DNA of 64,000 nt from a virus. Lineage: Duplodnaviria > Caudoviricetes. A program made the translations under genes and the position numbers. Under the pieces are notes generated by a model, which did no database searches, had not been told where the DNA came from, and saw only the letters and a list, made by a program, of their open reading frames with translations. The stretch is from IMG/VR virus record IMGVR_UViG_3300048598_000287, positions 1 through 64,000 of that record. One strand, 5' to 3'. Shown here piece after piece: positions 1 to 56,053 of this stretch (positions within the stretch are counted from its first letter, which is position 1; every line of letters starts with the position of its first letter).

Positions 1-977
1 TTGACAGCAAGGACCAGAAATTCGCATACATGAGCGCGGAAAACGTGAAGAGCCGCGATGCCATCAAAACGGCGGGGAATAATATCCGCTTCGGAAAGGC
101 CGTTTTCACGAATGAGGACGGAAAGCTTGTCCGCACGAATGTCATTTCTGACAGCGCAATCAAGCAGTGCGTGTTCAATTCCGATTGCCCGTACACATCA
201 TCGGAAATCTGGTACAAGCCGAAGTCGGTCATCCTCGCATACATCACATCACAGGTGATGCTGCTGAAGGGATATATGTGCGCGGATGTTGCCCCTTTCC
301 GTCACAAATCAATGCTCACCTTTTCCTGTGCGAAAATGTGTGAAAACACTGTCCCCGTGATGCAAGTCAATTCCACGAAAATGCCCATTCCCGATTCCAC
401 TAGCCTGTTCACGACCGAAACCTGCGGAGATACAGAATGGCGCGGAACCGTCCTCGTGAATGTCGGAAACGGTGAAAATTTTATTAATTTTTCGCAATCC
501 GTCCCCACATCGGTTAGCGAAACCGAATATGAGAACATCATCCGCGATGCGTTCGGGAACAAGGAGCTCGCAATCAAGGATTACACCCGTAAGGCAGCGG
601 TGGATTGCCCGTCCGAACGTGGCATTATACTTTCGGGAAAGGAAATCGCCGGAATGGTGAACCTTCTCCTTGACCGCATCCGCAATATGTCCCGCGAAGG
701 ACGTGGCGCATCCCTTGGGCAAGTCATTATTGACGGGATTGAAATCCGTGGCAAAGTGGAAGGCAGTGAACCCGATGCGAATGGCTGGTGCAAGGTGGCC
801 CCGGATTCGGAGTTCGGCTGCGTTGAGCCGCGCGAAGTATACCGCGAAAGCACGAAAGATGAAGTCAATGCGGTCAACATCGCAGTTGAAGCGCATAAGG
901 CTGCGGACAAGAAGAAGGCGGACAAGGGAAAGAAAAACAAACCGAATCCGGATGAGAACAAGAAGGAAACCGTCTGA
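1..977 (+). CDS. cas7: Cas7fv-like (type I-F2/I-Fv) Cascade backbone subunit, 5'-truncated by window edge
   Basis: Frame is open upstream of ATG30 (DSKDQKFAY). Motifs ISDSAIKQCVF, LLKGY, DSTSLFTTETCGDTEW and DYTRK..SERGIILS..LLDRIRNM align with my recollection of Shewanella Cas7fv (ISQNCIRHHLF, LIRGY, DSTSFFSKTTFGDTEY, NYVRR..GECGILLN..LERLANL). Next to cas6, array and cas3. Confidence 0.8.
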   Translation, partial: DSKDQKFAYMSAENVKSRDAIKTAGNNIRFGKAVFTNEDGKLVRTNVISDSAIKQCVFNSDCPYTSSEIWYKPKSVILAYITSQVMLLKGYMCADVAPFRHKSMLTFSCAKMCENTVPVMQVNSTKMPIPDSTSLFTTETCGDTEWRGTVLVNVGNGENFINFSQSVPTSVSETEYENIIRDAFGNKELAIKDYTRKAAVDCPSERGIILSGKEIAGMVNLLLDRIRNMSREGRGASLGQVIIDGIEIRGKVEGSEPDANGWCKVAPDSEFGCVEPREVYRESTKDEVNAVNIAVEAHKAADKKKADKGKKNKPNPDENKKETV

Positions 978-1031
978 TTTGGCTAACCACAGGGTGCGGC
1001 ATAACCCGCACCCCTTTACGGAGAATCCGCT

Positions 1032-1997
1032 ATGAGCATCGTTAAATTCAGATTTGAAAACTGCCGCGTCAACATGGACGGCACCAACATGAAATCCGTT
1101 CAGTTCAAGACGGCCCCCGGCATCACCGCGTACAGCCTCCGGAACGCATTGGCCGTTATGCTTGGAGAACTTCCCGTGACATTCCTTCAGCCGAAGTCCG
1201 GAAATATGAACGCCATGCGGAATACTCCCGCCGGAGGAGTTACACAATGGTGGGTGAAGAATGAACTCATCCGGCTCCATACCATGCTTTACGACATGGC
1301 GAAATCTGCCCGCATTGTATATGACGCTGACTATTCCCGGTTGAACAGATATAAGGAAGTGATTTCGGCACAGCGCTGCGGAGAACAAAAAGAACAATGC
1401 TATGGAAAAGTCGGACCGAGCGATATCCAATTCAACGGTAAAACATATGAGAATACAGATCATAACTACCCGTTCACCTATTCCGCAATGAGGGATTTGT
1501 TCTATCCGGTATGGGAAGAATTTGAATATGTGGCAGTCTCCGTATGCAAAAAAGACCTCAGATCCATGACCGGATGGGAAGTATTGGAAACGATGGCACA
1601 GGAATATCAGAATGGAAATGCAGCAGTGTGCACGTTGCAGTACCATATGGAAGAGTCTAATAAATCGCTCATCAGAAAATTTTCTGAAATTTTGAAATCC
1701 GGCAAAATTTCAGAAACTGGGTCAATAATCAGAAACAAGGTTGACGTACTATTCCAGCAGTATTCGTTCGCTCCTAGAACTCCTGCGGAATGCACAGTGA
1801 GGATGAGCGGAGATATTTATATTGATGTAAATGAAGAACATTATCAACGTTTTGTAAACGGATGTGGATATTCTACTCTTGACCTTGGAGTCATCACTCT
1901 TCTTGAAGGCGAAAGCGGAGATAACAGCAAGTTTGATTCCATTGAAGAAACACACGGCATTCCGCCCGTGGAAACACCGGAAATCATTGTCGGATAA
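1032..1997 (+). CDS. cas5: Cas5fv-like Cascade subunit
   Basis: 321 aa, between cas7fv and cas6. N-terminal beta strand plus LRNALAVMLGE, and C-terminal RMSGDIYIDV..GCGYSTLDLG resembling the Cas5fv RRM ends. Size matches Cas5fv. Confidence 0.6.
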   Translation: MSIVKFRFENCRVNMDGTNMKSVQFKTAPGITAYSLRNALAVMLGELPVTFLQPKSGNMNAMRNTPAGGVTQWWVKNELIRLHTMLYDMAKSARIVYDADYSRLNRYKEVISAQRCGEQKEQCYGKVGPSDIQFNGKTYENTDHNYPFTYSAMRDLFYPVWEEFEYVAVSVCKKDLRSMTGWEVLETMAQEYQNGNAAVCTLQYHMEESNKSLIRKFSEILKSGKISETGSIIRNKVDVLFQQYSFAPRTPAECTVRMSGDIYIDVNEEHYQRFVNGCGYSTLDLGVITLLEGESGDNSKFDSIEETHGIPPVETPEIIVG

Positions 1998-2009
1998 CAG
2001 GAGAAAATT

Positions 2010-2594
2010 ATGAAAGAATATATTGTAAAGTTCAAGAATAACTCCGGGAAGTCTCTCGGATACGGCTATCACATCGGTATGTACCGACTGTTCGGAGCTG
2101 AAAATGAAACATATGAAATAAACATCCCTCGGTTCCAGATTTTTGGAAACGGCATCGTACGCTTTTACACGGACGAAACGATTAAAAATGAAAGCGTCCT
2201 TGCATTCCAGCCGACATCTACTGATGTGAATACCGTTGCTTCCGGGTTTAACATTGTGTTCGCTCCTACCCGCAAGGATAAGAGGCTCTCGGGAACCGCA
2301 AAGCCCGTGCAGCCTACTGAAGTAGGCAAAAATTACATAAAGGGAAAACTCGCCGCCATGCTTGCACAAATGGGCATTACTGATGCGGACATAGAGTTAG
2401 AATACGGGCACGCGTTCTCCGAACAGTTCAAAAAAGGATTGGCGGTGCATAATATAATGACCGCCGCCGCTACTGTACGGTTTGCTTCTCCGCATGACAT
2501 TAGCAAAATCCTTACGAATGGCTACGGAAAGTTCAAGTTCAACGGGCTCGGTTATGTGGCTGAAATCTTTCACGACAGCGTGCAAAACCAGTAA
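2010..2594 (+). CDS. cas6: Cas6 crRNA-processing endoribonuclease (Cas6e-like G-loop)
   Basis: C-terminal glycine loop LTNGYGKFKFNGLGY; directly upstream of the array. Confidence 0.75.
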   Translation: MKEYIVKFKNNSGKSLGYGYHIGMYRLFGAENETYEINIPRFQIFGNGIVRFYTDETIKNESVLAFQPTSTDVNTVASGFNIVFAPTRKDKRLSGTAKPVQPTEVGKNYIKGKLAAMLAQMGITDADIELEYGHAFSEQFKKGLAVHNIMTAAATVRFASPHDISKILTNGYGKFKFNGLGYVAEIFHDSVQNQ

Positions 2595-2665
2595 GATATT
2601 TGTAAGCTATTTTATCTAACCCAACATATTGTATGTGTAGTGTATGGAATACCCAATATATTGCT
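2595..2665 (+). promoter_or_regulatory. CRISPR leader (AT-rich)
   Basis: AT-rich non-coding stretch before the first perfect repeat; degenerate repeats are at the opposite end. Confidence 0.55.
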
Positions 2666-3167
2666 GTTTCCCCCATACGCGGGGGAAGTTTACCAGAACG
2701 CAGATGCGGCTCTTTCGCAGTCGATAGTTTCCCCCATACGCGGGGGAAGTTTACCTAAGCCGTTCTCCGTATTAATCGTATAACTTGGTTTCCCCCATAC
2801 GCGGGGGAAGTTTACAAGATATAGTAAGAAAAACCACTGAAGCTATCCGTTTCCCCCATACGCGGGGGAAGTTTACCAGTGGAATTGGGGTCGTTCAGTA
2901 TGTTCTCATGTTTCCCCCATACGCGGGGGAAGTTTACCGGTAGAAGACGTATACAGTTTCCCCCATATGCGTTTCCCCCATACGCGGGGGAAGTTTACCA
3001 TTACAATATAATGGCACCGAAAACGGGCCAAGTTTCCCCCATACGCGGGGGAAGTTTACCTGAGATGGAAAGTGACGAGAATTCCATTTACAGTTTCCCC
3101 CATATGCGGGGGAAGTTTACTAGGGGCGTTTAGGTATTGGTTTCCCCCACCTATGGGGGAAGTTGAA
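2666..3167 (+). CRISPR. CRISPR array, repeat GTTTCCCCCATACGCGGGGGAAGTTTAC (28 bp), seven 33-bp spacers plus a degenerate trailer unit
   Basis: Repeats at 2666, 2727, 2788, 2849, 2910, 2971, 3032 and 3093 (one variant), period 61. Degenerate copy at 3140-3167 after a 19-bp spacer. CCCCC/GGGGG hairpin. Confidence 0.97.
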
Positions 3168-3208
3168 TGTAAAGTTGAATGTAAAGTTGAATGTAAAGGT
3201 GAATGTAA
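3160..3208 (+). repeat. 12-bp tandem repeat AAGTTGAATGTA x4
   Basis: Directly visible at the array trailer. Confidence 0.9.
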
Positions 3209-3270
3209 AAATGTTCCCCACGTATTGGGCACATTTGCTATATTGAAAGCGATCGTGTTTTGCAACCTGT

Positions 3271-3322
3271 TCCATCACCCTGTTCCATGACCGGTTCGAG
3301 AGATGGATAGGCCACCGTATAT
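3271..3322 (+). promoter_or_regulatory. Bipartite motif TCCATCACCC-N30-GCCACCGTATAT upstream of cas3 (also at 6558, 7013, 8689, 12923, 15699, 19809)
   Basis: Conserved boxes with 28-30 nt variable spacing, usually followed by the CAACAAGGAG RBS. Confidence 0.7.
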
Positions 3323-3349
3323 AGATGGGTATCAACAAGGAGTCTGAAT

Positions 3350-5683
3350 ATGGTATATGCAAAGGCGCTTAATAATGAATGCACCTCCATTACACTGAAG
3401 GAGCACAGTGAATCCGTGGCGAAGAAGGCGCGTGAGCTTGCTCTGACCCTTACGGGAGACTATCGCATAGGGAATCTCCTGTATGTTGCGGGCCTTCTGC
3501 ATGACGTAGGGAAGGCGACCAGCCATATGCAGGATTACTTCACGGGCAAAAGCTCCGGCGAACCGTCTCCGTATCATTCCGAAATCGGCTGGATGTGGAT
3601 TAGCACACAGGCGGCTCAAATCAAGCAGTATCTTAAGAATAATGAAGCGGTTCCCGAAGCATTCTGCAAGACCCCTTCCGTATGCGTTGACATACTGGCC
3701 AAGTCCGTGTTCTATCACCATGCGCGACATGTTCAATATGACGATAAGCATAAGGAAATTGACCCGGTATCAGACCTTACGGAGCACTGTTCCGAATACG
3801 TGCAGGAAATGAATTCCTCATATGCAAACGAGGAGTTCCACATGGAGTTTGACAATGACGTTCAGTTTGACGGGAAGGTACCCGAACTTAAGTCATCAGT
3901 GACAACTGGATCGCAGTCATCGGTGGCGGACGGGTTATTGTATCTTGTGCGCACCATCCTTGTCCATGCCGATCACATGGTGAGCGGTAACCTATCCGAT
4001 GGCAAGAGTTTTTCCGCATATCCCGTTCCCAATATGCCCGAGGGATGGGACGCTAAACGGTATGGCACGAGCAAGGAAATCGCTCTCGGCATCACCGGGT
4101 CATCCGGGATAAAGAATCATGTCATCAATGCCCCTGCTGGGTTCGGCAAAACCTCCATCGCGTATCTCACTGCACTTATGAGCAGCAACCGGACGGTCAT
4201 AGCGTGTCCGACCAAGTTCATAGCTGATGGCCTATATGATTCCCTTAATGAGCTAGAGAACCTTTTCGGGACACGTGTCGGGATAGAGCTTGTGTATGGC
4301 GGGAAACGGCAGAAGGCATCCTGTGAGGATTCCATGTGCAAGATAAGCGTGGGTACGATAGACACGTTCGTGGGGACGTTCGTGAAGGGCAAGAACATGG
4401 GGAATGCCATAGAGGGTTCCGACATATGCGCGTATGACATCCTTTCCTCGAACGTGGTGTTTGACGAATATCACGAGCTTCTGGATAACAATGCGCTCTT
4501 CGCGCTGTTCGTGAACATTCTATCCGCGCGCACCGTGTTCGTGAAGGATGCGAAGACGGTTCTGATGAGTGCGACACCCGTTAACTTACGTTCCGTGGCA
4601 CCTGTCCGCGATGGTGAGAACACGCAGTATTATCCGTCAAGAAACGAGGCCTATCCTGCTCAGCACGATAAGGAGTACACTCTATGCATGGTTGATTCCG
4701 TGCCCGAGAATCTTCCGGATAATACGTTCGCAATATTCAACACCGTGAAGGAAGCTCAGAAGCATATGGCAAATGGGAACACAATATGTCATCATGCGAA
4801 ATTCACGAAGGAAGACCGTGCCCGGAACGAAATGAATCTGTTCAGACATCACGGGAAGCATGGATCGGTTCCGGTATCGGTCTCCGCGTCTCCCATAATG
4901 CAGGCTTCAGTAGACGTGTCGGCGGGCACATTGTATGAGAGCACCGCATGGTTCACCAACACCGTGCAGCGGATCGGAAGATGCAACCGGTGGGGACGGG
5001 ATGAGAAAGCGGCGATCAATCTGTATTTCTCAACGGATGCCACGGAGAACATGACACGGTTCAAAGAGAAGTCCGCACTGGCCGATTCATGGCGGAAGTT
5101 CGTTTCGGAAAACGTGCATCCCAATATGACGGTCAACCTTGACTGGATATATAAGGAGCTGTACTTTAAGTTCTGTTCGGAGAACAATGAACAGATTGAT
5201 GCCTACACTACCGAATGCTATAAGGAGGGTAGGCAATCGCTCGCATCGCTTTTCCCAAAGGCGAGCGGTCAGTATAAGGATGAAACGAGCAAGGAGATCA
5301 GCGTTGATGGCTTGCGCGGTGATGCGAAATGTAATTGCGCACTCTATTGCAAAGAAGATGGTAAATGGATAGGTACGAATCATCAAAAAGATCCGAATGA
5401 CATCCCGTTCTCAATCGAGTACGAAAAGGTTACGCGTCTGTTAGATAAGGTGGAAGACATGGACAAGTGGTTGGGCCAGCTGCTCAAAACATATCCCGGA
5501 TCGTTTTCAGGAATAGAGGAATATGTAGGGTATAAGTCGGTTATCGGAAATATTACAAAGAAGAAGTTCGCATCCCTCATTAAGAATTTCGCATCATTCA
5601 GCAAGGACAGTGACTATCCGGTTCCGGTTCCCGAAGGCATGGGAATTTATGACCATCGTATAGGGGCTATGCTAACATTCTAA
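3350..5683 (+). CDS. cas3: Cas3 HD nuclease-SF2 helicase (no Cas2 fusion)
   Basis: YAK..TLKEHS, LHDVGK, HSEIG, YHH and HADH (HD domain); APAGFGKT (Walker A), DEYH, MSAT, HAKF and QRIGRCNRWG. Confidence 0.95.
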   Translation: MVYAKALNNECTSITLKEHSESVAKKARELALTLTGDYRIGNLLYVAGLLHDVGKATSHMQDYFTGKSSGEPSPYHSEIGWMWISTQAAQIKQYLKNNEAVPEAFCKTPSVCVDILAKSVFYHHARHVQYDDKHKEIDPVSDLTEHCSEYVQEMNSSYANEEFHMEFDNDVQFDGKVPELKSSVTTGSQSSVADGLLYLVRTILVHADHMVSGNLSDGKSFSAYPVPNMPEGWDAKRYGTSKEIALGITGSSGIKNHVINAPAGFGKTSIAYLTALMSSNRTVIACPTKFIADGLYDSLNELENLFGTRVGIELVYGGKRQKASCEDSMCKISVGTIDTFVGTFVKGKNMGNAIEGSDICAYDILSSNVVFDEYHELLDNNALFALFVNILSARTVFVKDAKTVLMSATPVNLRSVAPVRDGENTQYYPSRNEAYPAQHDKEYTLCMVDSVPENLPDNTFAIFNTVKEAQKHMANGNTICHHAKFTKEDRARNEMNLFRHHGKHGSVPVSVSASPIMQASVDVSAGTLYESTAWFTNTVQRIGRCNRWGRDEKAAINLYFSTDATENMTRFKEKSALADSWRKFVSENVHPNMTVNLDWIYKELYFKFCSENNEQIDAYTTECYKEGRQSLASLFPKASGQYKDETSKEISVDGLRGDAKCNCALYCKEDGKWIGTNHQKDPNDIPFSIEYEKVTRLLDKVEDMDKWLGQLLKTYPGSFSGIEEYVGYKSVIGNITKKKFASLIKNFASFSKDSDYPVPVPEGMGIYDHRIGAMLTF

Positions 5684-5753
5684 TCAATTAATCCATGGAT
5701 TGCGGACCCATTGCCATCCCTAACTCCTTTGGCAATCCGTCCCTCATGGATTC

Positions 5754-5812
5754 GGCGACCCGTCCCGGAAGTGTTTTGCTGACTTCTATCCGGGACGGGT
5801 CGCCCATTTTTT
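5754..5812 (+). terminator. Long hairpin plus U-tract after cas3
   Basis: 16-bp inverted repeat GGCGACCCGTCCCGGA (5754-5769) / 5789-5804, followed by TTTTTT. Confidence 0.65.
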
Positions 5813-5821
5813 GCCATCCCA

Positions 5822-5850
5822 TTGACAACGGCTATGTAATTAGCTATATT
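5822..5850 (+). promoter_or_regulatory. sigma70-like promoter TTGACA-N17-TATATT with conserved TAATTATC before -10 (many copies, e.g. 6120, 11534, 13424, 14491, 15757, 23697, 28155, 29419, 30526; minus strand 48001-48029)
   Basis: 17-nt spacing, recurring upstream of RBS/ORF starts. Confidence 0.8.
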
Positions 5851-5866
5851 ATAGATAACAAAGGAG

Positions 5867-6091
5867 ATGTATATGAGTGATACCAAGTTTGAACTCTTTC
5901 TGTGCGGTATTATGATTCTTGTAGGAATCGGAATAGGATTTATTATAGACACTGCATTTACCCCGTCCACCTACACCATAAAAGAATATCAATGGTGTCT
6001 AAAGAACGCGAATGAAGGATATTGTAAACTCCATTATAAGGATGCCGCATCCTATATGGAAAAGAATGGATTCGTATTCAAAGTGAAATGA
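5867..6091 (+). CDS. Small membrane protein (tandem paralog 1)
   Basis: One N-terminal hydrophobic helix; duplicated together with its promoter. Confidence 0.7.
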   Translation: MYMSDTKFELFLCGIMILVGIGIGFIIDTAFTPSTYTIKEYQWCLKNANEGYCKLHYKDAASYMEKNGFVFKVK

Positions 6092-6164
6092 AGTTCGCTA
6101 AAATAATCCGGGTATCCCATTGACAACGGCCATGTAATTAGCTATATTATAGATAACAAAGGAG

Positions 6165-6383
6165 ATGTATATGAGTGATACCAAGTTTGAAATCTTGCTG
6201 TGCGGTATTATGATTTTTGTGGGCATTCTTATAGGACTATTAATAGGATCTTCATCTATTCCACCCACCACAGGGGAATACGAATCGTGTCTTAAGCACG
6301 CGGAGGTAAACTATTGTAAACTCCATTATAAGGAAGCTGCTTCCTATATGGAAAAGAATGACTTCGTATTCAAAGTGAAATGA
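6165..6383 (+). CDS. Small membrane protein (tandem paralog 2)
   Basis: Paralog of 5867-6091. Confidence 0.7.
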   Translation: MYMSDTKFEILLCGIMIFVGILIGLLIGSSSIPPTTGEYESCLKHAEVNYCKLHYKEAASYMEKNDFVFKVK

Positions 6384-6427
6384 CGTTTGCTAACTCTATT
6401 TATTCTATATAATACACAATAGGCTGA

Positions 6428-6455
6428 GGTTTCCCCATACGCGGGGGAAGTTTAC
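6428..6455 (+). repeat. Solitary copy of the CRISPR repeat
   Basis: GGTTTCCCCATACGCGGGGGAAGTTTAC, one C shorter than the array repeat. Confidence 0.9.
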
Positions 6456-6635
6456 AACTACCGAGGAAATATAGGTAGTTCCCTAATGAGTTTCAACTCC
6501 GATGGGGAGAGGCTCCGCAAAGGGGACTATCTTTTTGACATACATTGTGCAACCTGTTCCATCACCCTGTACTGGACAGGTTCGAGAGACGGATAGGCCA
6601 CCGTATATGGATGGGTATCAACAAGGAGATTTGAT

Positions 6636-6944
6636 ATGAAGAAAATCATTAATGGCAAGAAGTATGACACCGAAACCGCGGTACTCATCGCCGAGATGGA
6701 CAACGGGCGTTCCGAATCCGATTTCAACTGGGTGCACGAGAAAATGTTCCTCAAGAAGACGGGTGAATTCTTCCTCTTCGGTGAAGGCGGGGCGATGACG
6801 GCATATCGGCGCGGTTGCGATGGCAATTCCTATTGCGGCGGGGAAAAACTCGTTCCCATCACCACGGATGAGGCAAAGAAGTTCGGCGAGGAGAATATGT
6901 CCGCCGAAGCGTATGAAAAGACGTTCGGCGTAGTCCACGAATGA
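6636..6944 (+). CDS. Conserved phage/MGE hypothetical protein (KKIINGKKYDTETA family)
   Basis: RBS, bipartite motif upstream, recognisable family start. Confidence 0.75.
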   Translation: MKKIINGKKYDTETAVLIAEMDNGRSESDFNWVHEKMFLKKTGEFFLFGEGGAMTAYRRGCDGNSYCGGEKLVPITTDEAKKFGEENMSAEAYEKTFGVVHE

Positions 6945-6961
6945 GTTTCAACTCCGATGGG

Positions 6962-6991
6962 GAGAGGCTCCGCAAGGGGCCTCTCTTTTTT
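6962..6991 (+). terminator. Intrinsic terminator GAGAGGCTCC-GCAA-GGGGCCTCTC-T6 (related copies near 6507 and 9463)
   Basis: GNRA-loop hairpin plus U-tract. Confidence 0.75.
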
Positions 6992-7091
6992 GGCATCCAT
7001 TGATCAACCCGTTCCATCACCCTGTTCCATGACCGGTTCGAGAGACGGATAGGCCACCGTATATGGATGGGTATCAACAAGGAGATTTGAT

Positions 7092-8196: not shown

Positions 8197-8610
8197 ATGC
8201 AAAATTCTAATGCGAACCTGAGTTATGAGAAGTTTTCCAATGGACGGGAAGAATGGTGGGATGATGCCAATGTTAAACTGATTCATGCAAAAGATCCGGA
8301 TGGGTATGAATGGTGGCACGAGTATGATGCCAATGGGAAACTGATTCATGAGAAGTCTTCCACCGGATATGAATGGTGGGATGAGGCTAATGGGAAACTG
8401 GTTCATGTGAAATGTACAGATGGCTCCGAAGTGTGGTTCGACTATGATGATACAGGGCACATCATTCATGAAAAGCATTCCGACGGTTCGGAAAAATGGT
8501 ATGACGCAAATGGAAAATTACTTCATGCAAAAAATGTTGACGGATCAGAAACTTGGTTTGATACCAATGGGAATGAGATTCCTATGGAAAATGCATCAAT
8601 GAACAGATAG
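8197..8610 (+). CDS. YD-like repeat protein
   Basis: W(Y)EYDANGKLIHxKxSDG repeats. Confidence 0.8.
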   Translation: MQNSNANLSYEKFSNGREEWWDDANVKLIHAKDPDGYEWWHEYDANGKLIHEKSSTGYEWWDEANGKLVHVKCTDGSEVWFDYDDTGHIIHEKHSDGSEKWYDANGKLLHAKNVDGSETWFDTNGNEIPMENASMNR

Positions 8611-8664: not shown

Positions 8665-8945
8665 GTGAAACTGATTCCGGGAACCTGCTCCATCACCCTA
8701 TACTGTACGGGTTCGAGAGAGGGATAGGCCACCGTATATCAGACAGTGTCCGAAGCGATGGTGCAGAGGATAGCAAGGAGTTTCAATATGACGTGTGAGA
8801 AAGGATTGCGGATCAGTTCCATAGAGCGGTCCAGACGGGTGGTTCAGTTACGAAAGGATGTCAAGGACATTGTCATCATGGTGGTGCTGCTGGGCGTCAT
8901 CGCGTTCCTGACATGGTATGTTGTCCTTATCGGGGCGGGGGTGTT

Positions 8946-45508: not shown

Positions 45509-46831
45509 GTGAACTACCCTCACCCTAAAGGGAGTGGGCTTCTTTTCGTTTCAACGGATCAGCTATGGAAGTTCCCTGCAAGCAGGGGACGGACAGGAGA
45601 TTCTCGACGGAGGGGCGTTCCGCCCGCTCGGCTCTGTGTGACGAGCCGATCAATAGAATGTTCTTTGCGGCATGAATATCCCTGTCCTCAGTCATGCCGC
45701 AGTCACAGGCGAAGATGCGCTTGCTGGGCGGCATATTGAGGAGGGAGCCGCATGCCGTGCACAGCCGGGTCGTGGGTTCCCATTTTGAGAGTTTAAATGA
45801 TGCAAAGCCTTCTTTCTGGATGAGTTTCTGTTTGATTCTTCCGAGGCATGAATGCTGGACGGCGCGGCCATAGCCGCGGCGTCTGCATCTTTGCCAGGAA
45901 GCGATCTGTTCATCCTGGAAATAGACAAAATCATAATTGGCATAGATCCAGTGAATGATCTTGTTGGCCTTGTCATCCCGCACATTGGATATGTGCTGAT
46001 ATTCACGCCGCACGAGCCGGAGAAGATGATTCCGTCGCTTGGATTCCTTATCGTGCTTCAGTGCCAGATGGCGCTGGAGCCGTGTAAGTTTCTCGGTTTC
46101 TTGCTCGGATACATCGAACTTCGTCCCGTCGGACACGGTCACCGTGTCCTTTATGCCCATGTCAATCCCGCAGGATCTGCCCGTCTTGGGCAAATCAGCG
46201 ATTTTAGCAGTCAGGCAAAGCTTTATATGGAAGCCGTCAGGCTTCCTCAATAGGCAGCTGTCATGCAGCTGATATGATTCAAATTTATTGAGATGTTCCA
46301 GACCGTGAACTTTCAGATTAGGAAATCCCGGGATCGTCATCATTGATCCGCTCTTTATCGTCATTCCCTGATGCCGGATCGGAAGGCTGCTCACCTCGCG
46401 GCGGAATCTCAGCTTCCCTACTTTTCCGCCTTTAAGTTTCTTCTTGTTAAGATTCTTAACGTCTTCCTTAAGTTTCTTTATCAGGTTCTGATGGATTCCG
46501 GTGTTGAGCGTGATCTCACGCTCAACCCGATTGTGTTCACGATCAAAACACAATACCTTGCGGTGCTCATTGTATTTATAACCGAAGATATCACCTGTCG
46601 ATATGGCGTCGTTTATCGACCACTTGGCCTCGACGAAGGCATGAGAAAGACGACGCAAGACGGACTTATCCGTCTTGCGCGCATTTACCTTCAAATCTAT
46701 CTGCCTTATCGCTTCCATCATTTATATAATTTATATCCTTGACTTTAATATACATTTTTATTATACTGTTATCTATGGCGGAATTCATCTCCCCGGACTA
46801 AATTCCGGGAGTTTTCTTCCGCAAATCTCCG
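45509..46831 (-). mobile_element. Non-autonomous IS200/IS605-family (IS1341-like) element
   Basis: tnpB only. Subterminal hairpins at both ends. Right end ...GTAGTTCAC; TTTAT immediately 5' of the left end. Confidence 0.75.
45525..46721 (-). CDS. tnpB: TnpB RNA-guided endonuclease
   Basis: GIDMGIKD (RuvC-I), YFQDE (RuvC-II), CTACG/CDCG zinc finger, DRDIHAAKNI (RuvC-III). Confidence 0.92.
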   Translation of the reverse strand: MMEAIRQIDLKVNARKTDKSVLRRLSHAFVEAKWSINDAISTGDIFGYKYNEHRKVLCFDREHNRVEREITLNTGIHQNLIKKLKEDVKNLNKKKLKGGKVGKLRFRREVSSLPIRHQGMTIKSGSMMTIPGFPNLKVHGLEHLNKFESYQLHDSCLLRKPDGFHIKLCLTAKIADLPKTGRSCGIDMGIKDTVTVSDGTKFDVSEQETEKLTRLQRHLALKHDKESKRRNHLLRLVRREYQHISNVRDDKANKIIHWIYANYDFVYFQDEQIASWQRCRRRGYGRAVQHSCLGRIKQKLIQKEGFASFKLSKWEPTTRLCTACGSLLNMPPSKRIFACDCGMTEDRDIHAAKNILLIGSSHRAERAERPSVENLLSVPCLQGTSIADPLKRKEAHSL

Positions 46832-47057
46832 ATAAACAAATCTTAACCTGCGTCTCAGCCTTGATTTCCGCGTCGCGGCGCTGGAGGTCGGAGTAACATC
46901 ACACAATCTGAACTGGATATTCACCAAGATGGAAAGGCGTTAATAGAATACAACAGGTGTAACATCAGACAAACCGAATCTAATCTTCATCCATTCTTTT
47001 GTACGCATCGCACCGCATGCAGGTGTAACATCAGACAAACCGAATCTAATCTTCATC
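46832..47057 (-). repeat. CRISPR-like mini-array A: 36-nt repeats at 47022, 46956, 46890 plus a degenerate end; three 30-nt spacers
   Basis: Period exactly 66; unique spacers. Confidence 0.85.
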
Positions 47058-47428
47058 TGATTCTTCATAAATCGTTGAATATCTTCATATTGCAATGAAT
47101 ACTTATCATAAAAAATCTCCCATACACGAGAACAACTTACCAAGAAATGCTTATTTTTTCCGGTTAACTGAATGTCAAACATCCATTCATCATCTGAATT
47201 GCGAAGATCTATACGATGGGTGGGTAGTTTGCTTTCATCACCATATTCATCCAGGAACACCGTATTTGTGCATTGTCCAAGTAGTTCCAGGAACGTCTTA
47301 TCAAATTCTTCCTGAGTAACCTCAGGTTTCTCTAATTCTGCTTTAGAGAACTTGGTGAGCATCAGGGATTTCATCTCATCCGATTCATTATAGATCTTTC
47401 TTGCTTCTTCAATTGTTAATTCTGCCAT
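46940..47428 (-). CDS. MAELT-family array-associated protein
   Basis: Paralog family; reads through two repeats (KIRFGLSDVTP twice). Confidence 0.85.
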   Translation of the reverse strand: MAELTIEEARKIYNESDEMKSLMLTKFSKAELEKPEVTQEEFDKTFLELLGQCTNTVFLDEYGDESKLPTHRIDLRNSDDEWMFDIQLTGKNKHFLVSCSRVWEIFYDKYSLQYEDIQRFMKNQMKIRFGLSDVTPACGAMRTKEWMKIRFGLSDVTPVVFY

Positions 47429-47451
47429 GGTAGGCCTCCATATAATATTTA

Positions 47452-47601
47452 ATAATCCAATCCGAATCTAATCGTCACCCTAGAAAACGCTCATGATAAA
47501 TCAATACCTGGTGTAACATCATTCAATCCGAACCGGATATTCACTACATGCTCCGTAGTCGGAACGATGTAATATCATCCAATCCGAACACGGTGTTCAC
47601 C
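47452..47601 (-). repeat. Mini-array B: repeats at 47566 and 47510, partial ending 47479; spacers of 20 and 30 nt
   Basis: Visible repeats. Confidence 0.8.
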
Positions 47602-47972
47602 TGATTCTTCATAAGTCGTTGAATCGCATTATCTTGCAATGAATACTTATCCTTGAAAATCTTCCATACCCTAAAATAACTTACCCAAAAATGCTTATTT
47701 TTTCCTGTGAAGAGGATGTCAAACATCCATTCATCATTTGGTTTTCTAAGTTCTCTGCGGTTAGTGGGAAGTTTGCTTTCATAACTATTTTCATCCAAGA
47801 ACACCGTCTTGGTGCATTGTCCAAGTAGTTCCAGGAACGTCTTGTCGAATTCTTCCTGTGTAACCGCATGCTTCTCAAGGTCTTCCTTAGTGAACTTAGT
47901 GAGCATCAGGGATTTCATCTCATCCGATGATGCGTAGATCTTTCTAGCTTCTTCGATTGTCAATCCGGGCAT
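47544..47972 (-). CDS. MAELT-family array-associated protein
   Basis: Paralog. Confidence 0.85.
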   Translation of the reverse strand: MPGLTIEEARKIYASSDEMKSLMLTKFTKEDLEKHAVTQEEFDKTFLELLGQCTKTVFLDENSYESKLPTNRRELRKPNDEWMFDILFTGKNKHFWVSYFRVWKIFKDKYSLQDNAIQRLMKNQVNTVFGLDDITSFRLRSM

Positions 47973-48112
47973 ATTTTATCTCCTTAATATGATGCAATTA
48001 AATATAGATATTTAATTGGTCATTGTCAACTACAAATGATACCAGAATTCGGATCAATTGGAATAATATGTATATCGGGTTTAATGGCCATTAAATTATT
48101 TATAGTCTCTTT

Positions 48113-48215
48113 GCTGTAACATCATCCAGCCCGAATCTAATCTTCACCATGTATCCGACAAATGTCATAATCCGTCTTGATTGTAACATCATCCAATCCG
48201 AACTGGATATTAACC
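48113..48215 (-). repeat. Mini-array C: repeats at 48180 and 48113; 31-nt spacer
   Basis: Visible repeats. Confidence 0.8.
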
Positions 48216-48586
48216 TGATTTTTCATAAGTCGTTGAATATCAATATCGTACATCGAATAGGTATCCACGAAAATCTTCCATACACGGTAATGACTTACCC
48301 AGAACCGCTTATTTTTCCCGGTGAACTTAATATCAATCATCCATTCGTTATTAGAATTTCTTAGTTCTATCGTGTTTGTGGGAAGATTGCTTTTTTCACC
48401 ATATTCATTCAGGAACGCAATCTTGGTGCATTGACCCAGTAATTTCAGGAACGTCTCGTCGAATTCTTCCTGAGTAACCGCATGCTTCTCAAGGTCTTCC
48501 TTAGTGAACTTGGTGAGCATCAGAGATTTCATCTCATCCGATGATGCATAGATCTTTCTTGCTTCTTCAATAGTCAATTCGGGCAT
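48137..48586 (-). CDS. MAELT-family array-associated protein
   Basis: Paralog; start MPELT. Confidence 0.85.
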   Translation of the reverse strand: MPELTIEEARKIYASSDEMKSLMLTKFTKEDLEKHAVTQEEFDETFLKLLGQCTKIAFLNEYGEKSNLPTNTIELRNSNNEWMIDIKFTGKNKRFWVSHYRVWKIFVDTYSMYDIDIQRLMKNQVNIQFGLDDVTIKTDYDICRIHGED

Positions 48587-48626
48587 ATTACATCTCCGTT
48601 GATATCTTAAATATATTAGCCAAGGA

Positions 48627-49043
48627 TTAAACGGGTATTTTTCCATAACGGTATTTAATGAATTTCAAATCATTTTCATCAATATAGCCATCCTGGATGA
48701 GGTTGTTACCGATTGCCTGCTCATCATACCACTTTTCATATGTATCGGGCATATCCCTATTTTTTATATATTCGTCTAAAGTCTCATTATAGCCTTCATA
48801 TTTTTTCCATTCATCGTTGAAAACGAATCCTTTTGCATTTAATTCATGTTCTGAAAGAACGAATTCTTCACACAGGTCAGGTTTTATTATGCAAACCCAT
48901 TGCCACCTAGGTTCAGCATCGCAAGTATAGTTCAGCTGAGAAAGCAAATGCATAGAAGGGAAAATATATTTCGTTCCGGAAAACCGATATACGGGAGCAT
49001 CAAAATATGTGTCTAAAAGTTTACTTTTACATTGTGCTTTCAT
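48627..49043 (-). CDS. Hypothetical protein
   Basis: ORF. Confidence 0.6.
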   Translation of the reverse strand: MKAQCKSKLLDTYFDAPVYRFSGTKYIFPSMHLLSQLNYTCDAEPRWQWVCIIKPDLCEEFVLSEHELNAKGFVFNDEWKKYEGYNETLDEYIKNRDMPDTYEKWYDEQAIGNNLIQDGYIDENDLKFIKYRYGKIPV

Positions 49044-49059
49044 AAATAGATACCTTCTG

Positions 49060-49144
49060 TTTCAATGTTTCCATAGCAGCATGCTAGGGTTTTAGTTAGC
49101 TTCATCTAGATAGTTCTCGCGTATTCAATCGTCAACTCGGTCAT
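49060..49144 (-). pseudogene. Decayed MAELT-family 5' fragment
   Basis: MTELTIEYARTI-stop after the family RBS GGAGGCCTACC and a terminal-repeat remnant. Confidence 0.6.
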
Positions 49145-49883
49145 GGTAGGCCTCCGTATAATATTTAATTATCCAATCAAATCCTGTTATTCATCCTGGT
49201 ATTTCTTAGATGCATCACATGTTATTGTCGGATAGTTAGGAAACTCATAGAACTTCAGTGGTTTTATGTTTGGTGTGTCAAATGGGCCTCGCAATGCCCA
49301 GTGAATTCCGTCATTGTCGTTCGCCTGTTTCTTCAATTCTTCCAGCGAAAACAAATATTCAATGAGGGCCACCTTTTCCGCATTGCTTAGGGAATCTGAT
49401 GTCATGATTAGGGTCTTCAGTTTTTCTGAACTATTCATATTATCATTCATTTAATTATCCTTTCCTGGAATATATTTCCAAGTTCAATCTGGTGATTGGT
49501 AATTCAATCTCTATAGGTAAACTATATTTTCTGCGATACCGTTACGATAGGAATTCACGGTACTGTCCGTTTCTGGGTGTTCTAATGTGGGAAATGACGT
49601 ATGTCAATATCAACCGATATAGATTTCGCAGATTCGTTAGTTACAATCAATGCATATTGTTCTCTACCGTTAATTATTGTAGATGTGTATTTTGTCACAC
49701 GCATCGACTTAGCAATGGACATGGTGTCAATATCTATTTCAGCATCGCCGGCTATTTTACGGGAATCAATGATATATGCAGAAAATTTTGAGCCCGATAA
49801 TACATTCACCGATGTCCATCCCGTGATAGAAATAGGCAAATTTACGGCGATCAATTTATTAGGACCTAGGATAGCCATTTAGC

Positions 49884-50306
49884 TCAGCCTCCGCCTTGTA
49901 CACAGTTCGCATACGGTTCGTTAAGTGGATGAATGGATAGCGTACCCCAGGCGTTTGGTTCACGACAAGTACGGGATTTAATCTGTGCCATAGCTTCTTC
50001 GGTAGTATGCGCTATGGCAAATGCCACGCCACGTGTATAAGCTGAGCAAAAATCTGTCCAGACAAATAACCGTAAGTTTTCGTTCATAATAATCTTAGGT
50101 ACTTCATCTGGAATAGTTGGCGCTGAGATAGTCGATCTAGACGATAATCCTTTGAAACCATACCATTTGTCGCGTTTCTGAACGGTTTCCGAATATATAT
50201 CAAGACATCCCTTTAGATATTCTGCCAGAACAAAATCAGGCGTATCCGATTCGTTTTCCTTACTGTACTTATTGATCAGCAATTCAAGCTCATTTTCAAA
50301 TTCCAT
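49884..50306 (-). CDS. Two-module hypothetical protein (C-terminal module shared with 37725-37925)
   Basis: LRLFVW..FC..YT.G.AFAIA in both. Confidence 0.65.
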   Translation of the reverse strand: MEFENELELLINKYSKENESDTPDFVLAEYLKGCLDIYSETVQKRDKWYGFKGLSSRSTISAPTIPDEVPKIIMNENLRLFVWTDFCSAYTRGVAFAIAHTTEEAMAQIKSRTCREPNAWGTLSIHPLNEPYANCVQGGG

Positions 50307-50333
50307 TATCGTCCTCTATGTAAAATATCAATT

Positions 50334-50532
50334 GATGTGACATCATCCAATCATAACCGGATATTCACTACATGCTCCGTAGTCGGAACGATGTAATATC
50401 ATCCAATCCGAACACGGTGTTCACCCACTGATTGATACATATCCTGATGGAGGAATGTGTTCACCCACTGATTGATACATATCCTGATGGAGGAATGATG
50501 TAATATCATCCAATCCGAACACGGTATTCACC
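50334..50532 (-). repeat. Mini-array E: repeats at 50497, 50390, 50334; a duplicated 31-nt spacer and a 20-nt spacer
   Basis: Visible repeats. Confidence 0.85.
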
Positions 50533-50904
50533 TGATTCTTCATAAGTCGTTGAATCGCATCATCTTGTAATGAATATGTATTCGCAAAAATCTTCCATAT
50601 CCTAAAATAACTTACCCAGAAATGTTTATTTTTTTCCTGTGAAGAGGATGTCAAACATCCATTCATCATTTGGGTTTCTAAGTTCTATACGATTGGTGGG
50701 AAGCTTGCTTTTATAACCATGTTCATTCAGAAACACCGTATTTGTGCATTGTCCAAGTAGTTCCAGGAACGTCTTATCAAATTCTTCCTGAGTAACCTCA
50801 TGTTTCTCAAGTTCACTTTTAGAGAACTTGGTGAGCATCAGGGATTTCATCTCATCCGATGATGTGTAAATCTTTCTTGCTTCTTCAATAGAAATTTCTG
50901 CCAT
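50421..50904 (-). pseudogene. MAELT-family gene with +1 frameshift in an A7 run (50629-50635)
   Basis: The paralog at 47544 has A6; the two ORF halves reconstitute a full protein. Confidence 0.8.
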
Positions 50905-50926
50905 AGTAGACATCCTTATAGTTAAT

Positions 50927-51096
50927 CACCAATACGAACATTGCAATCAGCCTAGAAAGCGAGCATGATAACTACCTGATGTAACATCAGTCAATCCGAA
51001 CAGAGGGTTCACCTCCCGTTCCATTATGCACGTCCGTGAAACGGGTCCTACAGGCCCCACATTGTAACATCATCCAATCCGAATCTAATCTTCACC
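50927..51096 (-). repeat. Mini-array F: repeats at 51061 and 50978, partial ending 50951; spacers of 47 and 26 nt
   Basis: Visible repeats. Confidence 0.75.
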
Positions 51097-51467
51097 TGAT
51101 TAGTCATAAGTCGTTGAATATCAATATAGTTCAATGAATAGGTATCCGCTAAAATATTCCATACCCGGAAATTATTTAACCAGAAATGCTTATGTTTTCC
51201 TGTGAAGCAAATGTCAAACATCCAATCGTTATTTGAATTTTTGAGTACTATGCGGTTTGTGGGAAGCTTGCTTTCAACCCAATCTTCATCCAAGAACACC
51301 GTCTTGGTGCATTGTCCAAGTAGTTCCAGGAACGTCTTATCAAATTCTTCCTGAGTAACCTCATGCTTCTCTAATTCTGCTTTAGAGAACTTGGTGAGCA
51401 TCAGGGATTTCATCTCATCCGATTCATTATAGATCTTTCTTGCTTCTTCAATTGTTAATTCTGCCAT
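51048..51467 (-). CDS. MAELT-family array-associated protein
   Basis: Paralog. Confidence 0.85.
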   Translation of the reverse strand: MAELTIEEARKIYNESDEMKSLMLTKFSKAELEKHEVTQEEFDKTFLELLGQCTKTVFLDEDWVESKLPTNRIVLKNSNNDWMFDICFTGKHKHFWLNNFRVWNILADTYSLNYIDIQRLMTNQVKIRFGLDDVTMWGL

Positions 51468-51497
51468 AGTAGGCCTCCTTATATAAGTTAATTAGAT

Positions 51498-51718
51498 AAT
51501 CCGAACTGGATATTCATCTGATTCCAAAGGATCTGAACGGCGGCACGGATGTAATATCATCCAATCCGAACTGGTTATTCATCTATGATATCAATGGGAA
51601 CGTTATTCATGCAAGGTGTAACATCATTCAATCCGAATCTAATCTTCACCCAAGTTTCTGAGCAACCCGTATGATTTTCCTTGGTGTAACATCATTCAAT
51701 CCGAATCTAATCTTCACC
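51498..51718 (-). repeat. Mini-array G: repeats at 51683, 51615, 51548, partial ending 51518; spacers of 32, 31 and 29 nt
   Basis: Visible repeats. Confidence 0.88.
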
Positions 51719-52089
51719 TGATTCTTCATAAGTTTAGTAATATCATTATCTTGCAATGAATACTTATCCTTGAAAATCTTCCATACCCTTTCAGAACTTA
51801 CCCAGAAATGTGGGTAGTTTCCTATGAAGAGGATGTCAAACATCCATTCATCATTTGGGTTTCTAAGTTCTATACGATTGGTGGGAAGATTGCTTTTATA
51901 ACCATGTTCATTCAGGAACACCGTCTTGGTACATTGCCCAAGAAATTCCAGGAAGATCTTATCGAATTCTTCTTGAGTAACCTCATGCGGTTCAAGTTCA
52001 TCTTTCGTGAACTTAGTGAGCATCAGGAATTTCATCTCATCCGATGATGCGTAGATCTTTCTTGCTTCTTCAATTGTCAGGTCTGGCAT
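51646..52089 (-). CDS. MAELT-family array-associated protein
   Basis: Paralog; start MPDLT. Confidence 0.85.
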   Translation of the reverse strand: MPDLTIEEARKIYASSDEMKFLMLTKFTKDELEPHEVTQEEFDKIFLEFLGQCTKTVFLNEHGYKSNLPTNRIELRNPNDEWMFDILFIGNYPHFWVSSERVWKIFKDKYSLQDNDITKLMKNQVKIRFGLNDVTPRKIIRVAQKLG

Positions 52090-52156
52090 TGTATATCTCC
52101 TTAATGTGATGTAATTAAATATACATTTTTTACACCTCATTGGCAAGTGAGTTTAA

Positions 52157-52417: not shown

Positions 52418-52487
52418 ATGTTCCCTCCTGTATTGAGCTCTAGCTCAGAATACCTATAATGAATCATATTTCCATTGACATCATACA

Positions 52488-53081: not shown

Positions 53082-53181
53082 GGTAGGCCTCCTTAAATAA
53101 TGATAAATCATAATTGATATTTAACTATCTTCCATTATGATATGTTGTAGATTCAATTAAAATATATGAAATTCTCCTTTG

Positions 53182-55510: not shown

Positions 55511-55532
55511 AACTAATATAAGGAGGCCTGAC

Positions 55533-56031: not shown

Positions 56032-56053
56032 AAATAATATAAGGAGGCCTACT

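What the first reader, a model, noticed from the sequence alone, without database searches (positions are those of the whole stretch)
1..5683. Phage-type minimal type I CRISPR-Cas of mixed ancestry
Seen/recognised: Cas7fv- and Cas5fv-like genes (I-F2, a subtype that lacks Cas8 and Cas11) are combined with a Cas6 bearing a Cas6e-like GxGKxKxxGLG loop. The repeat is I-E-like with a 61-bp period. Cas3 begins directly with the HD domain. Established: canonical I-F/I-F2 loci have a Cas2-Cas3 fusion, Cas6f and 60-bp units. cas3 lies after the array with its own phage-specific upstream motif, and no cas1/cas2 is in the window. Inference: an interference-competent variant that borrows host I-E adaptation machinery.
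Basis: partly seen in the sequence, partly recalled or inferred. Interest (0 to 1): 0.8.

Follow-up and report, generated by a model that had tools for sequence, protein, structure and literature searches.

The report
Huge-phage Cas8-less CRISPR-Cas3 system
A large wastewater phage carries an intact, very compact DNA-cutting CRISPR system (three effector genes, a seven-spacer array and a separate Cas3) that mixes features of the two related bacterial subtypes I-F2 and I-E, lacks its own spacer-capture genes in the sequenced part, and is aimed at least partly at sibling phages.

Summary
Window 1-5683 carries cas7 (cut by the contig start), cas5, cas6, a CRISPR array of 28-nt repeats and 33-nt spacers (period 61), and an unfused HD-first cas3 behind its own promoter-like motif.

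Cas7 matches only Cas7fv. ORF2 has a Cas5 fold (best match Cas5fv) and is predicted to bind Cas7. ORF3 is a Cas6 nearest the Cas6e family. Cas3 is nearest Cas3fv but lacks the Cas2 domain. Relatives show no cas8 or cas11 upstream.

No cas1 or cas2 lies in the 277-kb contig, which is about 66% complete. A distant phage-borne relative (L023) carries a Cas1e-like gene and a tiny Cas2e-like ORF between array and cas3. So the I-E-like array format is the family's own. Borrowing from a host is only one of several options.

Near-identical strains from wastewater carry different leader-end spacers, so the arrays are still changing. Two spacers match sibling phages' CRISPR-Cas loci. In one sibling strain cas3 is replaced by a methylase/HNH cassette.

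Earlier notes of this scan report similar Cas8-less phage systems on other DNA. I found no published name. Verdict: a real, probably functional new variant of a known kind.

The parts
3..977 (+). cas7 (Cas7fv-like backbone subunit), 5' end cut off by the contig start; about 40 codons are missing
   Evidence: NCBIfam Cas7fv E 3e-7 and PADLOC Cas7fv E 5e-4, the only family hits. A family profile hits only Cas7fv chains 5o6u_C and 9g44_F in the PDB, E 3e-5. Full-length relatives have 364 aa. dN/dS 0.13 against L012.
1032..1997 (+). cas5 (large Cas5, Cas5fv-like, with a helical insertion)
   Evidence: No sequence family. The structure model's best VIA match is Cas5fv 5o6u_F (Z 6.9, rmsd 4.3, 125 aligned); 11 of the top 12 matches are type I Cas5 chains. 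Foldseek's top two are 9g44_B and 5o6u_F at E 0.02-0.04. The Atlas top match is a Cas5 cluster. Predicted to bind Cas7.
2010..2594 (+). cas6 (repeat-cutting endoribonuclease, nearest the Cas6e/Cse3 family)
   Evidence: G-rich loop at 171-181 and invariant His21. Atlas: 30 of 30 feature hits are PF08798 clusters (0.90-0.91); structure TM 0.65/0.72 to a mostly viral PF08798 cluster. VIA: T. thermophilus Cse3 3qrp Z 7.0, rmsd 3.3, 104 aligned. The gene lies directly before the array.
2595..2665 (+). A+T-rich leader with a conserved repeat-proximal motif (ATACNCAATATA..)
   Evidence: The motif is conserved next to the first repeat in L028, in both L023 arrays and at the orphan repeat. An RNA-library contig runs from cas6 through the leader into repeat 1.
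2666..3167 (+). CRISPR array: 8 repeats of 28 nt, 7 spacers of 33 nt, a 19-nt remnant and a degenerate terminal repeat
   Evidence: The repeat folds into a hairpin (-13.3 kcal/mol, z -3.2). The stem is kept in L023 through changes on both sides.
3160..3209 (+). 12-nt tandem AAGTTGAATGTA, about 4 copies; candidate regulator-binding sites
   Evidence: The same tandem lies upstream of cas7 in L012. Copy number varies: 2 in L027, and one fewer in run X4.
3263..3347 (+). Phage promoter-like motif with ribosome-binding site ahead of cas3
   Evidence: Repeated at 6549, 7005, 8682 and about 19.8 kb. There are five copies in 277 kb, all on the + strand and each before a gene.
3350..5683 (+). cas3: HD nuclease plus SF2 helicase, without a Cas2 domain
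   Evidence: TIGR01596 at residues 16-212 and TIGR01587 at 258-574. The best PADLOC model is Cas3fv, E 5e-42. HD, Walker A, DEYH, SAT and QRIGR motifs are present. 98% identical to an intact copy in L026, dN/dS 0.23.
6384..6455 (+). Vestigial second CRISPR locus: leader-like stretch plus one repeat that lacks one C
   Evidence: L023 has a four-repeat second array in the matching place after cas3.

Best explanation
This is a functional, phage-encoded, Cas8-less type I CRISPR-Cas3 interference module.

Shown: three co-directional genes for a Cas7fv-like, a Cas5-like and a Cas6 protein, a regular hairpin-repeat array, and an intact HD-helicase Cas3 under its own promoter-like motif. All are under purifying selection, and the spacer content differs between near-identical strains.

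Inferred mechanism, by analogy with type I-F2 (PMC4937334, PMC12956352):
1. The array is transcribed, probably by read-through from cas6.
2. Cas6 cuts each repeat at the 3' base of its hairpin and stays on it. This leaves about 61-nt crRNAs with an 8-nt 5' handle.
3. Cas5 caps the handle and reads the PAM. About six Cas7 copies cover the 33-nt guide.
4. After the R-loop forms, the Cas7/Cas5 surface recruits Cas3, which nicks and degrades the target.

Targets include sibling phages, since two spacers match rivals' cas7 gene and CRISPR array. The biological role is therefore competition between phages, and perhaps also attack on host elements.

The 28/33 array format and conserved leader motif fit an I-E-type Cas1-Cas2 integrase, which a distant member of the family still encodes. 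In this phage that integrase is absent from the sequenced 277 kb. New spacers must then be written by an integrase encoded elsewhere in the genome or supplied in trans.
For: Gene identities:
- Cas7.
- Cas5.
- Cas6.
- Cas3 domains and motifs.

Cas7-Cas5 binding: the model supports it with score 0.78 against a best control of 0.00. That mark was reached by 58 of 80 solved complexes and 2 of 110 mismatched pairs. Runs agree in at least 37% of contacts, and partner pLDDT is at least 68. My own alignments were used, so the counts hold only roughly. The Cas5fv-Cas7fv complex is solved, so the pass may reflect likeness.

No large or small subunit: in L012-L014 a 285-nt intergenic region and four unrelated small genes lie upstream of cas7. 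In L023 the upstream genes are on the other strand.

Selection: cas7 dN/dS 0.13 against L012; cas3 dN/dS 0.23 against L026. There are no stops in any copy.

Array turnover: the same leader is followed by different first spacers in L013, L016, L019, L021, L022 and the window. L028 shares no spacer with the window.

Rival targeting: the terminal spacer of L026/L027 matches window cas7 at 752-784, 29 of 33. Window spacer 5 matches 33 of 33 a spacer/terminal-repeat junction seen in runs X1 and X4.

I-E-type adaptation in the family.

Transcription hint: RNA-library contigs cover the cas genes, the leader and repeat 1.

Spread: the locus is present in wastewater metagenomes of 10 studies.
Against: - All effector assignments rest on remote similarity. 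Cas7fv scores 30-36 bits against a 200-bit cut-off. The AlphaFold models have mean pLDDT about 61, with VIA Z about 7 and Foldseek E above 0.01.
- No crRNA ends, PAM or cleavage were observed.
- Targets for six of seven spacers were not found.
- A sibling strain lacks cas3 at this place, so Cas3-dependent cutting is not obligatory for the lineage.
- RNA-library contigs can come from contaminating DNA.
- No cas1 or cas2 is in the contig, and no sequenced species carries this repeat, so the spacer-writing step is unexplained.
Confidence: 0.7

Rival explanations
1. The phage has its own Cas1e-Cas2 adaptation module, encoded in the roughly one third of the genome that is not in this contig. The system is then complete and nothing is borrowed.
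For: The contig is a linear fragment, estimated 66% complete, with no terminal overlap. The family can encode a Cas1e-like gene. Arrays are still changing.
Against: In L023 the adaptation genes sit between array and cas3. That slot is empty here and in L026 and L027. 3.3 kb upstream of cas7 in L012 holds no cas1. Most phage CRISPR systems noted in this scan lack cas1 and cas2 (unchecked notes).
Confidence: 0.25
2. One reading: spacers are written by a host type I-E Cas1-Cas2 acting in trans on the phage leader and repeat.
For: The array has the I-E format of 28-nt repeats and 33-nt inserts, with a biased first base: C in 6 of 8 units here, and C or T in nearly all relatives. No cas1 or cas2 is in 277 kb. 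Spacers turn over.
Against: No representative genome of 185,579 species carries this repeat. The only candidate host bin for a relative has I-C and type II Cas1, not I-E. The family's own Cas1e explains the format without any host.
Confidence: 0.2
3. The module works mainly without DNA degradation, as a crRNA-guided binder that silences genes of rivals or host. Cas3 would be an optional, exchangeable add-on.
For: Sibling strain L027 keeps the array end and promoter but has a methylase/HNH cassette in place of cas3. L028 has yet another gene after its array.
Against: In this window and in L026 cas3 is intact, has all catalytic motifs and is under purifying selection. L023 also keeps cas3. Whether L027 and L028 have cas3 elsewhere is unknown.
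Confidence: 0.1
4. It is a decaying remnant of a captured bacterial system with no present function.
For: There are no adaptation genes, a degenerate terminal repeat, a 19-nt remnant spacer, and a one-repeat second locus.
Against: All four genes are intact in every copy seen and are under purifying selection. Spacer content is strain-specific. The locus is conserved in wastewater samples of 10 studies.
Confidence: 0.04

Closest known systems
Type I-F2 (I-Fv) CRISPR-Cas of Shewanella putrefaciens CN-32 (PDB 5O6U, 5O7H, 9G44; PMC4937334, PMC12956352)
   Same: The gene order cas7-cas5-cas6-array is shared. There is no Cas8 and no Cas11. Cas7 matches only Cas7fv. Cas5 is large, with Cas5fv as its best structural match. 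The Cas3 helicase part is nearest the Cas3fv model. The repeat is 28 nt.
   Different: Similarity is very remote: Cas7fv scores 30-36 bits against a 200-bit cut-off. Cas3 is not fused to Cas2 and lies after the array under its own promoter. Cas6 is nearer Cas6e than Cas6f. Spacers are 33 nt (unit 61, not 60). The adaptation gene in the family is Cas1e-like, not Cas1f. The system is carried by huge phages.
Type I-E CRISPR-Cas (E. coli K-12, Thermus thermophilus)
   Same: Shared features are the 61-nt repeat-spacer unit, a hairpin repeat starting GT.TCCCC, a stand-alone HD-first Cas3, a Cas6e-like processing enzyme, and a Cas1e-like integrase in relative L023 (29% identical to E. coli Cas1).
   Different: There is no Cas8e or Cas11. 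Cas7 and Cas5 show no detectable match to Cas7e or Cas5e at sequence level. Cas3 scores better with the Cas3fv model than with Cas3e.
Vibrio phage ICP1 type I-F1 system (PMC10161043)
   Same: It is a phage-encoded type I system used offensively, and its array changes between isolates.
   Different: By that paper, ICP1 has Csy1 (Cas8f) and a Cas2/3 fusion. From my own knowledge it also has Cas1 and Cas6f. Here Cas8, Cas1 and Cas2 are all missing.
Cas8-less Cas3 + Cas7fv + Cas5fv + Cas6 modules on other huge phages, as noted earlier in this scan (e1-5362909, e1-5349019, e1-5633947; unchecked AI notes)
   Same: They have the same four-gene content, no adaptation genes, a phage context, and spacers against rival phages.
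   Different: Those loci have cas3 first. Here cas3 follows the array. Relatedness of the proteins to those loci was not tested here.

Membership tests
CRISPR array | Regularly spaced direct repeats with unique spacers of constant length | tested here: met
   Eight repeats at exact 61-nt spacing with unique 33-nt spacers. The pattern occurs 10 times forward and 0 times in the control.
Type I (Cas3-dependent) CRISPR-Cas | Cas3 with an HD nuclease and an SF2 helicase | tested here: met
   TIGR01596 (57.5 bits, cut-off 43.45) and TIGR01587 (102.9 bits, cut-off 102.45) both pass. The catalytic motifs are present.
Type I-F2 (I-Fv) | Effector made of Cas7, Cas5 and Cas6 only; no Cas8 or Cas11 gene | tested here: met
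   There is no further ORF inside the operon. Upstream of cas7 in L012-L014 lie an intergenic region and unrelated small genes. In L023 the upstream genes are on the opposite strand.
Type I-F2 (I-Fv) | Cas7fv-family backbone protein | tested here: inconclusive
   It is the only family matched, but far below the equivalog cut-off: 30-36 bits against 200. PDB profile E 3e-5 to 5o6u_C and 9g44_F.
Type I-F2 (I-Fv) | Cas5fv-family protein | tested here: inconclusive
   There is no sequence match. The model (pLDDT 61) has 5o6u_F as its best match: Z 6.9, rmsd 4.3, 125 aligned. Other Cas5 chains fill 11 of the top 12 places.
Type I-F2 (I-Fv) | Cas2-Cas3 fusion | tested here: not met
   The HD domain starts at residue 16-18 of a 777-aa protein. 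In L023 residue 11 aligns to position 116 of the Cas3fv model.
Type I-F2 (I-Fv) | Cas6f (Csy4) processing enzyme | tested here: inconclusive
   No Csy4 match was found. The nearest family by language-model features and by structure is Cas6e, PF08798.
Type I-F2 (I-Fv) | Repeat-spacer unit of 60 nt (28 + 32) | tested here: not met
   The repeat is 28 nt but spacers are 33 nt, giving a unit of 61 here and in L013, L023 and L028.
Type I-E | Cas8e (Cse1) and Cas11 (Cse2) subunits | tested here: not met
   No such genes are in the window or in the relatives' flanks.
Type I-E | Cas6e (PF08798) processing enzyme | tested here: inconclusive
   Pfam gives no hit. hhalign to E. coli CasE aligns only the G-rich loop, E 0.2. 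Atlas: 30 of 30 hits are PF08798, TM 0.65/0.72. Cse3 Z 7.0, rmsd 3.3, 104 aligned.
Type I-E | Cas1e-Cas2e adaptation module | tested here: not met
   It is absent from the 277-kb contig. It is present only in distant relative L023: Cas1e 153 bits, under the 215.6-bit cut-off, and a 64-aa Cas2e-like ORF at E 0.016.
Type I-E | 61-nt repeat-spacer unit with a hairpin repeat | tested here: met
   The I-E figures (61-nt crRNA, 8-nt handle) are as given in PMC4937334.

The most novel reading that the evidence does not exclude
This may be an unnamed type I lineage between I-E and I-F2 that is confined to huge phages. It would pair a Cas8-less Cas7/Cas5/Cas6e-like effector with an I-E-type integrase that most members have shed. 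Its nuclease slot would be exchangeable (Cas3 in some strains, a methylase/HNH cassette in others). It would be used for warfare between sibling phages that even targets the rival's own CRISPR-Cas locus, with spacers written in trans.
Probability: 0.35. Interest if true: 0.8.

Novelty: new variant of a known kind. Interest (0 to 1): 0.62.

Why it matters
Type I-F2 is the smallest known Cas3-based system and is being developed for genome editing. A natural relative with an unfused Cas3, a Cas6e-like processing enzyme and a 61-nt crRNA widens the set of parts for such compact editors.

The system also bears on how I-E and I-F are related. The link to a phage-borne Cas1e gives a testable explanation for how phage arrays without cas1 and cas2 keep gaining spacers. 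Spacers aimed at sibling phages' cas7 gene and array point to CRISPR-against-CRISPR competition among abundant wastewater phages.

Tried and rejected
- Pfam, NCBIfam, PADLOC and PHROGs gave no family for ORF2 or ORF3, nor for the four small genes upstream of cas7 in L012.
- phmmer and profile searches of the PDB gave nothing for ORF2 or ORF3.
- hhalign of the ORF3 family against E. coli CasE, and of the ORF2 family against CasD, was not significant.
- Six-frame scans for PF08798 and PF09618 found nothing. The PF08798 control also missed E. coli, so this says little.
- Foldseek gave no hit at E below 0.01 for either model.
- The exhaustive protein search found only 3 close relatives of ORF2 and one weak hit. 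The word-based search found 2 relatives of ORF3.
- No relatives were found in IMG/VR by protein or repeat pattern. None were found in INPHARED.
- The repeat pattern gave zero hits in representative genomes of 185,579 species.
- Spacers 1 and 4 gave no exact hit in IMG/VR. There are no self-targets in the contig.
- The contig ends do not overlap, and the far end does not hold the L012-type upstream genes. The missing 5' end of cas7 could not be recovered.
- I considered that spacer 5 is an assembly chimera or an internal rearrangement. Its exact 33-nt length and its 33 of 33 match to a junction seen in two other runs favour a real spacer, but this is not proven.
- Parts of the stretch without contig cover in runs X2, X4 and X19 were not interpreted.
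- PAM: only two protospacer flanks are known (GG and GA before a C). That is too few to call.

Full report
**Context.** The window is the first 64 kb of a 277,197-bp linear IMG/VR virus contig, estimated 66% complete, 40.9% G+C, with no terminal overlap. The finding therefore starts at a contig end, and sequence upstream of base 1 is not available. Near-identical DNA occurs in wastewater metagenomes of 10 studies from 2020 to 2025.

**Anatomy.**
- ORF1 3-977 is open at its 5' end.
- ORF2 is at 1032-1997 (321 aa) and ORF3 at 2010-2594 (194 aa).
- A 71-nt A+T-rich leader follows.
- Eight 28-nt repeats (GTTTCCCCCATACGCGGGGGAAGTTTAC) stand at exact 61-nt spacing from 2666.
- There are seven 33-nt spacers, then a 19-nt remnant and a degenerate ninth repeat at 3140.
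- A 12-nt tandem (AAGTTGAATGTA, about 4 copies) lies at 3160-3209.
- A promoter-like motif at 3263-3347 recurs four more times, always within the first 20 kb and always before a gene.
- cas3 is at 3350-5683 (777 aa).
- The base after the repeat is C in six of eight units.
- The repeat folds into a stable hairpin (-13.3 kcal/mol, z -3.2).

**Gene identities.**
- ORF1 matches only Cas7fv (NCBIfam E 3e-7, PADLOC E 5e-4). A profile of ORF1 with three relatives hits only the Cas7fv chains 5o6u_C and 9g44_F in the PDB (E 3e-5). The scores are far below the equivalog cut-off, so it is a remote relative and not a member.
- ORF2 has no sequence family and only three close relatives plus one weak hit among 1.8 billion representatives. 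Its AlphaFold model is mediocre (pLDDT 61). Even so, 11 of the 12 best VIA-align matches are type I Cas5 chains, led by Cas5fv 5o6u_F (Z 6.9, rmsd 4.3, 125 aligned). Foldseek's two best are 9g44_B and 5o6u_F, and the Atlas best is a Cas5 cluster.
- The complex test supports binding of the Cas7 and Cas5 proteins of L012. The score is 0.78 against a best control of 0.00. That mark was reached by 58 of 80 solved complexes and 2 of 110 mismatched pairs. Contact agreement is at least 37% and partner pLDDT at least 68. My own alignments were used, so the counts are rough, and a like complex is solved, so the pass may reflect likeness.
- ORF3 has the RAMP glycine-rich loop GYGKFKFNGLG and an invariant His21. 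Its C-terminal ferredoxin-like domain matches T. thermophilus Cse3 (Z 7.0, rmsd 3.3, 104 aligned). In the ESM Atlas all 30 feature hits are PF08798 (Cas6e) clusters, and the best structural match is a mostly viral PF08798 cluster (TM 0.65/0.72). Profile methods do not confirm Cas6e.
- Cas3 passes the Cas3 HD and Cas3 core models and has all HD and SF2 motifs. It is closest to the PADLOC Cas3fv model (E 5e-42) but starts directly with HD. In L023 residue 11 aligns to model position 116, so the Cas2 part of Cas3fv is absent.

**Relatives.** Contigs L012-L022 (65-70% identical proteins) give the full 364-aa Cas7. Upstream they show a 285-nt intergenic region holding the same 12-nt tandem, and four small genes without any family. 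No cas8, cas11 or cas1 is present.

The distant relative L023/L030 (34-38% identical) lies on a 90-kb phage-like contig with a T4-type portal and topoisomerase genes, binned in a Paludibacteraceae MAG from horse faeces. Its layout is cas7-cas5-cas6, a nine-repeat array of period 61, a Cas1e-like gene, a 64-aa ORF with a weak Cas2e match, cas3, and a second array.
- TIGR03638 scores E 8e-45 on that Cas1, against E 5e-12 for Cas1f.
- The Cas1 is 29% identical to E. coli Cas1, and residues align with what I recall as the E. coli active-site residues.
- Its repeat keeps the hairpin through changes on both sides of the stem.
- That MAG's other Cas1 genes are type I-C and type II. All arrays of this repeat lie on the phage-like contig.

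So the I-E-type array format belongs to the phage family itself.

**Adaptation.** No Cas1 or Cas2 is detectable in the 277 kb. Yet strains with the same leader carry different first spacers, and L028 (91% identical Cas6) shares no spacer with the window. The arrays are therefore being rewritten in nature. Who writes them is open.
- The missing third of the genome could hold the genes.
- A co-infecting relative could supply them.
- A host could supply them. No representative genome of 185,579 species holds this repeat, which argues against a simple host-mimic model.

**Targets.** No spacer hits the phage's own contig. None hits INPHARED or, for two spacers tried, IMG/VR. Two spacers do point at sibling phages.
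- The terminal spacer of L026/L027 matches window cas7 at 752-784 in 29 of 33 positions.
- Window spacer 5 equals, 33 of 33, a junction between a spacer and the terminal repeat variant seen in contigs of runs X1 and X4.

**Modularity.** L026 has cas3 98% identical and intact (dN/dS 0.23). L027 has the same array end, tandem, promoter and downstream flank, but in place of cas3 it carries an EcoRI-like methyltransferase, a 156-aa gene and a GmrSD_N/HNH endonuclease. L028 has yet another gene after its array. The place behind the array is thus a variable slot, and cas3 is one of its cargoes.

**Second locus.** At 6384-6455 a leader-like stretch with the conserved motif precedes one repeat that lacks a C. 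It corresponds in position to the second array of L023 and is best read as a vestigial or empty second CRISPR.

**Expression.** Contigs of a metatranscriptomic library cover the cas7/cas5 and cas5/cas6 junctions, cas6 through the leader into repeat 1 (followed by a different spacer), and cas3. This fits transcription and read-through from cas6, but DNA carry-over cannot be excluded.

**Comparison and novelty.** The effector works like I-F2 (PMC4937334, PMC12956352). However, the system fails the I-F2 tests for the Cas2-Cas3 fusion and the 60-nt unit, and no Cas6f match was found. It fails the I-E tests for Cas8e and Cas11.

The 2025 classification mentions only a variant between I-F1 and I-F2 (PMC12669027). 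My searches found no paper on a Cas8-less system with Cas1e. Al-Shayeb et al. 2022 could not be read here.

Earlier notes of this scan report like four-gene systems on other huge phages. Those notes are unchecked, and I did not test whether those proteins are related to these. I rate the finding a new variant of a known kind.

Noticed in passing
L027:151-3131 (minus strand), sibling of window 3350-5683: In a sibling strain from the same metagenome, cas3 is replaced by an EcoRI-like adenine methyltransferase, a 156-aa gene and a GmrSD_N/HNH endonuclease. The flanks are identical: the array end and promoter on one side, and window 5686-5841 on the other.
   Followed up: partly
window 2938-2970: Spacer 5 contains 19 nt identical to the window's own spacer 7/repeat 8 junction. 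It matches 33 of 33 a spacer/terminal-repeat junction present in two wastewater runs, so it appears to be a spacer taken from a rival's CRISPR array.
   Followed up: partly
window 5816-6393: Two tandem paralogous small genes (74 and 72 aa, hydrophobic N-terminal part) each sit behind a near-consensus sigma-70-type promoter (TTGACA, 17 nt, TATATT). One wastewater contig joins 5899 to 6198, so it has a single copy.
   Followed up: no
window 3263-3347, 6549-6635, 7005-7090, 8682-8739, about 19846: A long promoter-like motif (..GTTCGAGAGA..GGCCACCGTATAT.. then a ribosome-binding site) occurs five times in 277 kb. All copies are on the + strand within the first 20 kb. It may mark a temporal class of phage genes that includes cas3.
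   Followed up: partly
window 46800-56700: Many copies of an unrelated repeat of about 36 nt (GTAACATCATCCAATCCGAA...) stand at roughly 66-nt spacing on both strands. These are the mini-arrays noted by other first-stage findings. They share no sequence with the repeat of this locus.
   Followed up: partly
window 8197-8610: The coding sequence contains 57-63-nt tandem repeats, a repeat-protein gene of YD/WYD-like type according to other notes.
   Followed up: no
L023:18012-18971 and L023:20136-20163: The relative's locus is followed by a TnpB/Cas12f-like gene (PF07282) and by one more solitary copy of its CRISPR repeat, next to a T4-type portal gene.
   Followed up: no
window 6455-6530 and 6940-6995: The orphan repeat is followed by a hairpin (AACTACC..GGTAGTT) and by a conserved terminator-like element that recurs at 6930-6979 and 7595. 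A similar hairpin lies upstream of cas7 in L012.
   Followed up: no
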